From the IMG/VR virus record IMGVR_UViG_2675903509_000008: 5,283 nucleotides of DNA, one strand, 5' to 3'. A model generated the notes under the pieces. The model worked only from the letters and a program-made list of their open reading frames with translations, did not search any database and was not told where the DNA came from. Positions 3,303 through 4,232 of the stretch are shown in pieces. Origin of the DNA: a virus. Taxonomy: Duplodnaviria > Heunggongvirae > Uroviricota > Caudoviricetes. Each line of letters begins with the position of its first letter. Position 1 is the stretch's first letter. The translations under genes and the position numbers were made by a program.

Positions 3303-3422
3303 ATATTTAGACTAAAGAGTTTGTAACGCTATGTAAGTGATTTTTTCTGGTTTAGATATTTATATGTCCGGCCAAATTGAGGTGTGTTTAAATGTTATTG
3401 CACATTGATTGTAGGGGGAATA

Positions 3423-3602
3423 ATGAAAAACGCATTGCAGTTTTTGTTTGTTGCGTTCTGGTTGTTCGCATCATGTATGCCCATCATCTTCACAGCAAGG
3501 TATATGGAAAAAATTGATGTTTTGATATTAATGTTTGGACATATAAATGCCCTTTTTTTAGGGGTGTTCATGGCGGTCATGTGCATTGAATACTGGCGGT
3601 AA
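3423..3602 (+). CDS. small hydrophobic membrane protein, two predicted transmembrane helices (59 aa), in an AT-rich insert
   Basis: ATG 3423 preceded by AGGGGG 3413-3418; the track's GTG 3384 start lacks an SD. Two hydrophobic stretches (ALQFLFVAFWLFASCMPIIF and IDVLILMFGHINALFLGVFMAVMCI). Rare codons (tta, ttg, ata, agg) and visibly lower G+C than the flanks. Confidence 0.55.
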   Translation: MKNALQFLFVAFWLFASCMPIIFTARYMEKIDVLILMFGHINALFLGVFMAVMCIEYWR

Positions 3603-3657
3603 ATACAGCGAACGCCATTGGTTTAGTTGGATATTTACTGTGCCGGACAAAAACGGT

Positions 3658-3685
3658 TTGCGGGGAAATCTTAGTTAAGTAGAAT
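3658..3685 (+). promoter_or_regulatory. candidate sigma70 promoter for the hok transcript
   Basis: -35 TTGCGG 3658-3663, 16-bp spacer, -10 TAGAAT 3680-3685. The predicted start near 3692 would give a transcript of roughly 420 nt to the terminator, similar to known hok mRNAs. Confidence 0.35.
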
Positions 3686-3744
3686 AACTGCGGGTGCTTG
3701 AGGCTATCTGTCTCAGGCATGAACACCAAAAGGCAGATAGAGAA

Positions 3745-3812
3745 AAGCCCCAGTTAACATTACGCGTCCTGCAAGACGCTTAACATTAATCTGAGGCCAT
3801 ATCTATGCGACA
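3745..3812 (-). ncRNA. candidate Sok-like antisense RNA against the mok/hok leader
   Basis: On the minus strand: -35 TTGACC (complement of + 3842-3847), 18-bp spacer, -10 TAATCT (complement of + 3818-3823). A transcript starting near 3811 would be antisense to the mok-like start codon (3805) and its GAGG (3793-3796). The 3' end is not defined; a GCGTC/GACGC hairpin (+ 3764-3779) lacks a U-tract. Confidence 0.3.
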
Positions 3813-3864
3813 CATAGAGATTAGCCTCTTACGGACCGAAAGGTCAAGGAGAAGCAGGCTATGA
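3805..3864 (+). CDS. mok-like leader ORF (19 codons), translationally coupled to hok
   Basis: ATG 3805 with GAGG 3793-3796 at 8-nt spacing; translates MRHIEISLLRTERSRRSRL; its TGA 3862-3864 overlaps the hok ATG 3861-3863 (ATGA). Confidence 0.4.
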   Translation: MRHIEISLLRTERSRRSRL

Positions 3865-4016
3865 AGCAGCAAAAGGCGATGTTAATCGCCCTGATCGTCA
3901 TCTGTTTAACCGTCATAGTGACGGCACTGGTAACGAGGAAAGACCTCTGCGAGGTACGAATCCGAACCGGCCAGACGGAGGTCGCTGTCTTCACAGCTTA
4001 CGAACCTGAGGAGTAA
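3861..4016 (+). CDS. hokD: Hok-family type I toxin (HokD/RelF-like, 51 aa)
   Basis: AAGGAG 3846-3851 at 9-nt spacing to ATG 3861. Translation MKQQKAMLIALIVICLTVIVTALVTRKDLCEVRIRTGQTEVAVFTAYEPEE matches the Hok family signature and, from memory, HokD/RelF over its full length. Confidence 0.9.
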   Translation: MKQQKAMLIALIVICLTVIVTALVTRKDLCEVRIRTGQTEVAVFTAYEPEE

Positions 4017-4084
4017 GAGACCCGGCGAGGGAGAAATCCCTCGCCACCTCTGATGTGGCAGGCATTCTCAACGCACCCGCACTT

Positions 4085-4115
4085 AACCCGCTTCGGCGGG
4101 TTTTTGTTTTTATTT
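4085..4115 (+). terminator. rho-independent terminator of the hok transcript
   Basis: Stem AACCCGC (4085-4091) / GCGGGTT (4096-4102) around a TTCG loop, followed by TTTGTTTTTATTTT. Confidence 0.7.
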
Positions 4116-4124
4116 TCAACGCAT

Positions 4125-4154
4125 TTGAAGTTCTGGACGGTGCCGGAATAGAAT
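4125..4154 (+). promoter_or_regulatory. candidate sigma70 promoter for the rem-like gene
   Basis: -35 TTGAAG 4125-4130, 18-bp spacer, -10 TAGAAT 4149-4154, about 80 nt upstream of ATG 4233. Confidence 0.3.
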
Positions 4155-4232
4155 CAAAAATACTTAAGTAGCGCGCAGGGATAAGAGGGATGGTCCCTTA
4201 AAGGGGAGAGCTAATTATCCGGAAGGATTCTG

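What the first reader, a model, noticed from the sequence alone, without database searches (positions are those of the whole stretch)
3805..4009. mok reduced to a 19-codon leader, with a start-less ghost frame overlapping hok
The leader ORF beginning at ATG 3805 ends with TGA 3862-3864, overlapping the hok ATG. Separately, a frame with no start codon is open from 3818 to 4006 and covers almost all of hok in the register where a full-length mok would lie. This pattern fits a frameshift that cut an ancestral overlapping mok into a short leader while keeping termination-reinitiation coupling to hok.
Basis: partly seen in the sequence, partly recalled or inferred. Interest (0 to 1): 0.5.

Follow-up and report, generated by a model that had tools for sequence, protein, structure and literature searches.

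The report
Short mok leader in prophage hokD
This is an intact prophage copy of the well-known hok/mok/sok toxin-antitoxin locus. Its small upstream reading frame (mok) is a common natural allele that stops exactly on the toxin's start codon, and relatives show that mok's reading frame changes freely in evolution.

Summary
ATG 3805 opens a 19-codon ORF ending at TGA 3862-3864, which overlaps the hok ATG at 3861 (ATGA). The -1 frame is open 3818-4006 with no start codon.

The locus is a complete hokD-type hok/mok/sok cassette in a lambdoid prophage, 100% identical to E. coli AR_0013. Across about 240 related loci the mok ATG and its GAGG Shine-Dalgarno are invariant, but the ATG sits at -57, -56 or -58 from the hok ATG:
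- -57, in frame with hok, as annotated for K-12 mokC: about 88%.
- -56, the short leader seen here: about 10%.
- -58, the plasmid R1 register, with a 68-70 codon mok: about 3%.

The "ghost" frame is exactly the register of the full-length mok in sibling alleles. Their leader is identical from TTAGCC to the hok ATG, and the window differs by a 2-nt shorter loop just after the mok ATG. However, an open ghost frame is not beyond chance (P 0.12-0.49), and the ATGA overlap follows automatically from hok's Met-Lys start.

The short allele occurs in about 14% of complete E. coli genomes. [quoted passage not shown] Interest is modest. The side observation is that the Sok-target hairpin is hypervariable.

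The parts
3658..3685 (+). Putative hok promoter: -35 TTGCGG at 3658-3663, -10 TAGAAT at 3680-3685.
   Evidence: Read from the sequence. It lies 7 nt upstream of the 5' end of the Rfam leader match at 3692. The simple consensus scan did not pick it up, so this is inferred.
3692..4106 (+). Full-length hok mRNA, about 415 nt. The 5' tac element (3692-3703) pairs with the 3' fbi element (4066-4078).
   Evidence: Predicted fold of -166.7 kcal/mol, z = -8.1, with the 5' and 3' ends paired. Inverted repeat I4, 3685-3697 with 4073-4085. Rfam RF01794 match at 3692-3863, 106.7 bits against a gathering score of 59.
3793..3796 (+). mok Shine-Dalgarno GAGG, 8 nt upstream of the mok ATG. It pairs with dcb GCCUC (3824-3828) in the target hairpin, and with an upstream box in the full-length fold.
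   Evidence: Invariant in 33 homologues, and the consensus GAGG:CCUC pairs are kept in 33 of 33. Folds.
3802..3818 (+). Inner hairpin holding the mok AUG: stem UCUAUG/CAUAGA with a 5-nt apical loop CGACA (3808-3812). The loop is 2 nt shorter than in sibling alleles. This is the frameshift site and the most variable spot of the locus.
   Evidence: Folds, alignments, entropy and diversity.
3805..3864 (+). mok leader ORF: 19 codons plus TGA, in the +1 frame relative to hok. The stop overlaps the hok ATG as ATGA.
   Evidence: The start codon is homologous to the R1 mok and K-12 mokC starts.
3824..3855 (+). Local stem-loop inside the leader ORF. UCUU (3827-3830) pairs with the hok SD region GAGA (3849-3852), topped by GACC-GAAA-GGUC (3834-3845). 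It sequesters the hok SD (AGGAG, 3847-3851).
   Evidence: Minimum-free-energy structure. The hairpin exists in a long and a short allelic form, which is the second indel site.
3861..4016 (+). hok (hokD type): a 51-aa Hok/Gef toxin.
   Evidence: Pfam PF01848 at 82.9 bits. Annotated as hokD in the identical RefSeq record.
3818..4006 (+). Start-less open frame (-1 relative to hok), 63 codons. It is the register of the full-length mok in R1 and in sibling alleles, and is not translatable here.
   Evidence: 57 of 63 residues match L010 Mok codons 6-68. Not significant by chance tests. No match to the Mok families NF010277 or PF17496.
3741..3812 (-). Predicted Sok antisense RNA: a short 5' tail complementary to the mok AUG and loop, a long hairpin, then GGGGCUUUUCUCU. 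The ends are approximate.
   Evidence: Fold of 3812-3735(-): -32.2 kcal/mol, z = -5.5. Positional homology to annotated K-12 sokC, which starts 8 nt inside mokC. Expression was not tested.
3818..3847 (-). Putative sok promoter on the minus strand: -35 TTGACC (3847-3842), 18-nt spacer, -10 TAATCT (3823-3818).
   Evidence: Read from the sequence by analogy with my recollection of where the R1 sok promoter lies (own knowledge). The consensus scan did not pick it up, so this is inferred. Two of the three indel sites lie in its spacer.
4085..4110 (+). Intrinsic terminator of the hok mRNA.
   Evidence: 7-bp stem, 5 GC pairs, followed by a T tract.

Best explanation
The window carries a complete, apparently functional hokD-type hok/mok/sok type I toxin-antitoxin cassette of a lambdoid prophage.

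Proposed mechanism:
1. The hok mRNA (about 3692-4106) is first locked by pairing of its 5' and 3' ends (tac/fbi), with the mok SD sequestered.
2. After 3' trimming it refolds. The mok SD (GAGG) then pairs with GCCUC at the base of a hairpin whose inner stem carries the mok AUG.
3. The antisense Sok RNA is made from the opposite strand and begins inside the apical loop. It binds there and blocks mok translation.
4. When Sok is gone, ribosomes start at AUG 3805 and translate 19 codons. They pass through the stem-loop that sequesters the hok SD, stop at UGA 3862-3864, and Hok translation begins at the overlapping AUG 3861.

The short leader is a common natural allele. Three small indel sites lie between the mok and hok starts: the apical loop, TTAGCC versus TT-GCC, and a long versus short GAAA hairpin. 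Together they place the conserved mok AUG at -58, -57 or -56. In this allele the loop is 2 nt shorter, which gives the +1 frame, and that frame always ends on hok's ATGA.

Only the act of translating up to the hok initiation region matters. The Mok peptide and its frame are therefore free to change. The "ghost" frame is simply the register that sibling alleles and R1 use for a full-length mok.

Shown here: the anatomy, the homology, the three frame states and their frequencies, the indel positions, and conservation of the RNA shape. Inferred: transcription start sites, Sok expression, and the coupling itself.
For: Anatomy:
-.
- Rfam match at 106.7 bits; Pfam HOK_GEF at 82.9 bits.
- 100% identity to a prophage region with hokD and rem annotated.

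Frame states:
- In 128 loci: 97 at -57 in frame, 15 at -56 ending at +1, and 8 at -58 ending between +107 and +149.
- In an independent pattern-based IMG/VR sample of 113 loci: 99, 11 and 3 respectively.
- R1 has ATG at -58 and 70 codons. K-12 mokC and hokC share a stop, and mokC starts 57 nt upstream.
- Indel sites were located.
- The short state arose independently in hokC of E. ruysiae and E. whittamii.

Persistence of the allele:
- The allele-specific 57-mer is at least 99% identical in 783 of 5426 complete E. coli genomes, including EC958.
- The exact leader occurs on 11 distinct hok-mRNA backgrounds, with Hok intact in 23 of 23 complete copies.

RNA shape:
- All 12 allele types fold to the same SD:dcb stem plus an inner stem holding the AUG, at -13.2 to -15.8 kcal/mol.

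Literature:
- Stop codons in R1 mok downstream of the hok start do not affect hok. Stops upstream of it abolish hok translation. The first 19 Mok residues lie upstream of the hok ATG (PMC9841398, citing Thisted & Gerdes 1992).
Against: - Nothing here measures translation. That a mok stop placed exactly on the hok AUG supports coupling is extrapolated from R1 mutants.
- The predicted sok and hok promoters fall below the simple consensus scan.
- The window's 5-nt loop CGACA lacks the YUNR (U-turn) motif that I read by eye in most, not all, of the other alleles. This could change Sok binding kinetics (own reading of the sequences).
- The samples are biased toward E. coli prophages and toward loci with conserved Hok.
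- The tree is a neighbour-joining tree on recombining sequences.
Confidence: 0.72

Rival explanations
1. One reading: the immediate ancestor had an R1-like full-length mok in the -1 frame. A single frameshift, a 2-nt loss after ATGC, cut it to 19 codons and left the rest as a ghost frame.
For: - L144, L160 and L166 have the same leader from TTAGCC to the hok ATG, a 7-nt-type loop and ATG at -58, giving a 68-codon mok in the ghost register.
- One indel event suffices from this state.
- The outgroups L010, L011, L025, L028, L029, L031 and L023 are -58.
Against: - Over the whole locus the window is closest to -57 in-frame alleles: 20 differences to L056, against 34 to L166 and 69 to L144. It also nests in a mostly -57 clade.
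- The ghost frame also carries a TAG at 3815, which needs further substitutions.
- The open frame is not significant (P 0.12-0.49), and it is equally open in loci with an in-frame mok.
Confidence: 0.35
2. The short leader derives from the in-frame (mokC-like, -57) state that dominates E. coli hokD loci. The change came by hairpin remodelling or recombination that swapped in the long GAAA hairpin and a shortened loop. On this view the ghost frame is irrelevant to its origin.
For: - The nearest whole-locus relatives are -57.
- The -57 state makes up 88% of the sample.
- The 5' arm GAGGCCATATCTATG is shared with the commonest -57 type.
Against: It needs at least two indel differences (loop -2, hairpin +1) against one from the -58 siblings.
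Confidence: 0.35
3. The allele is a decaying, non-functional hok locus. The frameshift uncoupled hok from mok, and the cassette is silent.
For: - Published work suggested that chromosomal hok loci are often inactive (cited in 10.1101/2025.08.07.668861).
- The loop lacks a YUNR motif (own reading of the sequences).
Against: - The allele is present in about 14% of complete genomes.
- Hok is intact in 23 of 23 complete copies, on 11 distinct backgrounds.
- The mok SD and ATG, dcb, tac/fbi and the terminator are all intact.
- R1 data show that mok beyond the hok start is dispensable.
Confidence: 0.1

Closest known systems
hok/mok/sok (parB) of plasmid R1
   Same: - A Hok/Gef toxin and a mok start with a GAGG SD about 57 nt upstream of hok.
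- An AGCCUCUUAC box and 5'-3' tac/fbi end pairing.
- A cis-antisense Sok whose 5' end covers the mok start.
- The first 19 mok codons lie upstream of the hok ATG.
   Different: - R1 mok is 70 codons in the -1 frame, ends at +152, and matches NF010277 and PF17496.
- Here mok is 19 codons in the +1 frame and stops on the hok ATG. The -1 frame has no start and matches no Mok family.
- This locus is in a prophage, not a plasmid.
hokC/mokC/sokC (gef) of E. coli K-12, and the majority hokD prophage alleles
   Same: The same subfamily, with 80-100% Hok identity, the same leader elements and the same Sok position.
   Different: There mok is in frame with hok, so Mok is Hok with a 19-residue N-terminal extension. 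Here TAG 3822 closes that frame and the leader is a separate 19-codon ORF.
Engineered R1 mok truncations (Thisted & Gerdes 1992; Le Rhun et al. 2023, PMC9841398)
   Same: The mok ORF ends at or after the hok start while hok remains translatable. The window is the natural counterpart of these mutants.
   Different: Those are laboratory stop-codon mutants in the -1 frame. This is a naturally fixed frameshift allele that ends exactly at the AUGA overlap.
ldrX-ldrD leader-coupled type I toxin, and classical AUGA/UGAUG translational coupling such as trpB-trpA
   Same: A short upstream ORF whose translation across the toxin's initiation region is proposed to license toxin translation (PMC8167048). 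The stop and start codons overlap (the trp example is own knowledge).
   Different: These are unrelated sequences. The comparison is a functional analogy only.
K-12 Qin prophage hokD (relF)
   Same: Identical Hok protein and the same downstream gene rem.
   Different: The K-12 copy matches only from window 3847 onward (H23-H26). Its mok/sok leader was replaced by relBE, whereas the window has the complete cassette.

Membership tests
[quoted passage not shown] | Hok/Gef family membrane toxin of about 50 aa | tested here: met
   Pfam PF01848 at 82.9 bits against a cut-off of 22. Annotated as hokD in the identical record.
[quoted passage not shown] | An upstream leader ORF (mok) with its own SD, whose translation runs across the hok SD and start | tested here: met
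   ORF 3805-3864 with GAGG at 3793-3796. It covers the hok SD at 3847-3851 and ends on the hok ATG. The ATG and SD are invariant in 33 homologues.
[quoted passage not shown] | A structured leader recognised by the curated RNA family, and a cis-antisense Sok overlapping the mok start | tested here: met
   RF01794 at 106.7 bits against a gathering score of 59. The antisense strand folds as a tail, a long hairpin and a U tract, z = -5.5. Its position is homologous to annotated sokC. Transcription was not tested.
[quoted passage not shown] | Long-range 5'-3' (tac/fbi) pairing that locks the full-length mRNA | tested here: met
   Predicted pairing of 3692-3703 with 4066-4078 in the minimum-free-energy fold, z = -8.1. 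Inverted repeat I4. This is a prediction only.
[quoted passage not shown] | hok translation depends on mok translation, and Sok represses through mok | not testable with these tools
   Needs reporter or toxicity assays. Inferred from R1 data.
R1-type Mok protein (NCBIfam NF010277 / Pfam PF17496) | A protein of about 70 aa in the -1 frame overlapping nearly all of hok, and matching the family model | tested here: not met
   R1 Mok scores 151.6 and 140 bits. The window's -1 frame has no start codon and no match at E <= 0.01. BLASTP against R1 Mok gives E = 0.10.
MokC-type (in-frame N-terminally extended Hok) | mok ATG in frame with hok and sharing its stop codon | tested here: not met
   TAG 3822-3824 closes the hok frame, and there is no start between 3825 and 3861. 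Compare K-12 mokC.
Termination-reinitiation coupled gene pair | The upstream stop codon overlaps or abuts the downstream start | tested here: met
   ATGA at 3861-3864. The overlap is intrinsic to the hok ATG AAR start.
Termination-reinitiation coupled gene pair | Downstream translation depends on upstream termination at that site | not testable with these tools
   No expression data.

The most novel reading that the evidence does not exclude
The hairpin that holds the mok AUG, whose apical loop pairs with the 5' end of Sok, may be a diversifying specificity determinant. On this reading, prophage hok/sok cassettes fall into about ten discrete hairpin types that keep co-resident copies from cross-repressing one another. 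Indels selected or tolerated there for RNA-RNA recognition would drag the mok reading frame among three states as a passenger: an in-frame Hok extension, an R1-like 68-70 codon overlap, and a 19-codon leader.

Support so far:
- Nucleotide diversity is 0.36-0.40 in the 5' arm and loop, against 0.036 at hok third codon positions.
- The shape and stability of the hairpin are conserved across 12 types.
- 24 of 25 co-resident pairs differ. There is no proper null for this figure.
- The Sok 5' tail is known to make the first contact with this loop (PMC1635323).
Probability: 0.4. Interest if true: 0.5.

Novelty: new variant of a known kind. Interest (0 to 1): 0.3.

Why it matters
The finding gives natural, population-scale support for a 30-year-old mutational result: only translation of mok up to the hok initiation region matters, not the Mok protein.

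It also bears on annotation. mok is annotated as a fixed protein (MokC, or the Mok family NF010277), but it is better treated as a frame-labile leader. The short allele is unannotated in about 14% of complete E. coli genomes.

A recent large Hok survey left Mok aside because it was "not trivial" to identify. The conserved ATG at -56, -57 or -58 with a GAGG SD offers a simple rule for finding it in this subfamily.

The hypervariable Sok-target hairpin suggests a testable basis for orthogonality among the many hok/sok copies in one genome.

Tried and rejected
- Chance tests of the open -1 frame were not significant (P = 0.12 and 0.49), so the ghost frame was rejected as evidence on its own.
- Protein-family and BLASTP comparison of the ghost frame and of L010 Mok with R1 Mok found no detectable protein-level homology. 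The relationship is therefore argued from DNA register and alignment only.
- RNAalifold on 33 leaders recovered only the invariant SD:dcb stem. The inner stem uses different registers in different alleles, so no covariation statistic was obtained. Single-sequence folds were used instead.
- The consensus promoter scan found neither the hok nor the sok promoter. Both are assigned by sequence reading, from the position of the Rfam leader match and annotated K-12 sokC and from my recollection of the R1 sok promoter.
- Pedersen & Gerdes 1999 and Gultyaev et al. 2000 are not held in the library. I could therefore not check whether short mok frames were already noted there.
- A co-residence exclusion test for hairpin types was limited to 25 pairs, too few for statistics. 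The tools do not list all places per genome.
- The first attempt at family scans failed on a coordinate error.

Full report
**1. Observation**

- ATG 3805 opens a 19-codon ORF (MRHIEISLLRTERSRRSRL) that ends at TGA 3862-3864.
- hok begins at ATG 3861, so stop and start overlap as ATGA.
- hok (3861-4016) encodes MKQQKAMLIALIVICLTVIVTALVTRKDLCEVRIRTGQTEVAVFTAYEPEE. This matches Pfam HOK_GEF at 82.9 bits and is annotated as hokD in a 100% identical E. coli chromosome.
- The -1 frame is open for 63 codons, 3818-4006, and contains no ATG, GTG or TTG.
- The hok frame itself is closed upstream by TAG 3822-3824.

**2. What the locus is**

The window is the early-right (nin-type) region of a lambdoid prophage. 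It carries DUF1627, DUF977, DUF4406, ead/Ea22-like and hokD genes, then rem, followed by DUF968, rusA and an antiterminator gene. The hok cassette is complete.
- Rfam sok/hok leader family RF01794 matches 3692-3863 at 106.7 bits, against a gathering score of 59.
- The 415-nt transcript 3692-4106 is predicted to fold very stably (-166.7 kcal/mol, z = -8.1). Its 5' end (3692-3703) pairs with 4066-4078, which is the tac/fbi lock of the R1 paradigm.
- The same fold sequesters the mok SD. A local stem-loop (3824-3855) pairs the hok SD region with UCUU 3827-3830.
- An intrinsic terminator lies at 4085-4102.
- The opposite strand from about 3812 down to about 3741 folds as a short 5' tail, a long hairpin and a U tract (z = -5.5). 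This is the position of annotated sokC in K-12, which starts 8 nt inside mokC.
- K-12's own hokD (Qin prophage) matches only from 3847 onward. That agrees with the known rearrangement that removed its leader.

**3. Comparative evidence on mok**

I collected 53 loci from species-representative genomes, 80 from IMG/VR by Hok protein and 120 more from IMG/VR by a leader DNA pattern. I added R1-type hok and K-12 hokC.

The mok ATG and its GAGG SD are invariant. The distance to the hok ATG takes three values.

| mok ATG | Frame relative to hok | Where mok ends | 128 loci | 113 loci |
|---|---|---|---|---|
| -57 | in frame | at the hok stop | 97 | 99 |
| -56 | +1 | TGA of ATGA | 15 | 11 |
| -58 | -1 | +107 to +149 | 8 | 3 |

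- R1 is -58, with a 70-codon Mok that matches NF010277 and PF17496.
- K-12 mokC is -57 and shares hokC's stop.
- The short state also occurs independently in hokC of E. ruysiae and E. whittamii, through a 1-nt shorter loop.

**4. Where the frame changes**

Alignments show three indel sites between the two start codons:
- (a) the apical loop immediately after the mok ATG;
- (b) TTAGCC versus TT-GCC;
- (c) a GAAA-tetraloop hairpin in a long form (GGACCGAAAGGTCA) or a short form (GTGCCGAAAGG-CA).

The combinations give the three frames:
- Normal-length loop (2 nt longer than the window's), TTAGCC and the long hairpin give -58.
- Losing 1 nt at (b) or (c) gives -57.
- The window has TTAGCC, the long hairpin and a loop 2 nt shorter (ATGC--GAC), which gives -56.

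L144, L160 and L166 are identical to the window from TTAGCC to the hok ATG but have the longer loop. Their 68-codon Mok reads RLASYGPKGQGEAGYEAAKGDVNRPDRH..., which is the window's ghost frame. The ghost frame is therefore the true register of a full-length mok, and the frameshift can be placed between 3808 and 3809.

Over the whole locus, however, the window is closest to -57 alleles: 20 differences to L056 against 34 to L166. It nests in a mostly -57 clade whose outgroups are -58. The direct parent, -58 or -57, cannot be decided. These prophage cassettes clearly exchange segments.

**5. What is and is not beyond chance**

- The open -1 frame is not significant (P = 0.12 and 0.49). It is equally open in 110 of 113 hokD loci, whichever frame mok uses.
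- The ATGA overlap is a by-product of hok's ATG AAR start.
- The same conserved nucleotides, such as TTAGCCTCTTAC, are read in different frames in different alleles. Conservation therefore acts on the RNA or DNA, not on a Mok peptide.

**6. Is the short allele alive?**

- Its allele-specific 57-mer is at least 99% identical in 783 of 5426 complete E. coli genomes, including EC958. Nothing is annotated under it.
- The exact leader sits on 11 distinct hok-mRNA backgrounds, and Hok is intact in 23 of 23 complete copies.
- All regulatory elements are intact.
- Experiments on R1 show that mok start-codon mutants and stops upstream of the hok start abolish Hok. Stops in mok downstream of the hok start have no effect. 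The first 19 Mok residues lie upstream of the hok ATG (PMC9841398, citing Thisted & Gerdes 1992).

A 19-codon leader ending on the hok AUG is thus the minimal mok that those experiments predict to be sufficient.

**7. Mechanism** (inferred unless stated)

1. The full-length mRNA is inert.
2. After 3' trimming, the SD:dcb hairpin forms.
3. Sok's 5' tail contacts the apical loop. This is established for R1 (PMC1635323).
4. Without Sok, ribosomes translate the leader and melt the 3824-3855 stem-loop.
5. They terminate at UGA, and Hok translation starts at the overlapping AUG.

The last six leader codons (TCA AGG AGA AGC AGG CTA) include rare Arg and Leu codons and the hok SD itself. These might slow ribosomes over the hok start. 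That is speculation.

**8. Side finding**

Among 106 IMG/VR loci, nucleotide diversity varies strongly along the locus (entropy scan).

| Region | Nucleotide diversity |
|---|---|
| 5' arm of the mok-start hairpin | 0.36 |
| Apical loop | 0.40 |
| 3' arm | 0.19 |
| hok third codon positions | 0.036 |
| Untranslated regions | about 0.09 |

- About ten discrete hairpin types recur.
- All 12 types tested fold to the same architecture, with similar stability of -13.2 to -15.8 kcal/mol. The apical loop is 7-9 nt in nine of them and 4-8 nt in two, against 5 nt in the window.
- 24 of 25 co-resident pairs in 12 genomes differ. This is descriptive only.

This fits a specificity-determining, diversifying Sok-target loop, with the mok frame as a passenger. 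It needs a genome-wide test.

**9. Novelty**

The family and the mechanism are textbook. In-frame mokC is annotated. The dispensability of distal mok is published. In the searchable literature I found no description of a natural 19-codon mok allele or of three-state frame lability. A 2026 survey explicitly left Mok unanalysed.

I rate this a new variant of a known kind, of modest interest.

Noticed in passing
window 3797-3819; loci L137-L256: The hairpin around the mok AUG is by far the most variable part of the cassette. Diversity is 0.36-0.40, against 0.036 at hok synonymous positions. It falls into about 10 recurring types that keep the same fold, which suggests Sok/hok specificity classes.
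   Followed up: partly
window 3692-3863 (+): The Rfam 'sok antitoxin' model RF01794 matches the plus strand, and its consensus ends at the hok AUG. As built, it describes the hok-mRNA leader strand rather than the antisense Sok.
   Followed up: no
window 4025-4106 (+): A weak isrK-like hit (26.6 bits, below the gathering score of 50, E = 0.009) coincides with the hok mRNA 3' end (fbi plus terminator). It may be only terminator similarity.
   Followed up: no
window 3384-3602 (+): A 72-aa hydrophobic ORF with a GTG start lies in a stretch of about 560 nt that has no annotated gene in the identical RefSeq record (L001 5703-6262). It could be an unannotated small membrane protein.
   Followed up: no
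window 3637-3682 and 4137-4171; 4125-4154: Short direct repeats flank the hok cassette: ACTGTGCCGGA/ACGGTGCCGGA and TAGTTAAGTAG/TACTTAAGTAG, about 490-500 nt apart. A promoter-like TTGAAG-18-TAGAAT lies just downstream of the hok terminator and upstream of rem. These could be a cassette junction or chance.
   Followed up: no
window 3847 onward versus K-12-type hits H23-H26: K-12-like genomes match only from 14 nt upstream of the hok ATG onward. This is consistent with the relBE-hokD rearrangement having replaced the mok/sok leader there.
   Followed up: partly
L047 (Shigella flexneri hokC), L043 (E. coli ECMA0423): These are decayed copies. L047 Hok reads PDRHLYHRRSGGAG in its middle, a double frameshift through the -1 frame. 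L043 lacks a start codon.
   Followed up: no
L017 (Acinetobacter idrijaensis, 275-nt contig), L022 (Xanthomonas pisi, 431-nt contig): Tiny contigs in non-enterobacterial assemblies carry E. coli hokD at 96-100% identity. They are probably contaminant contigs.
   Followed up: no
window 3818-3847 (-): Two of the three indel sites that set the mok frame lie in the spacer of the putative sok promoter. The spacer is 18 nt here and 17 nt in the in-frame alleles, so selection on sok promoter spacing could also drive the frame changes.
   Followed up: no
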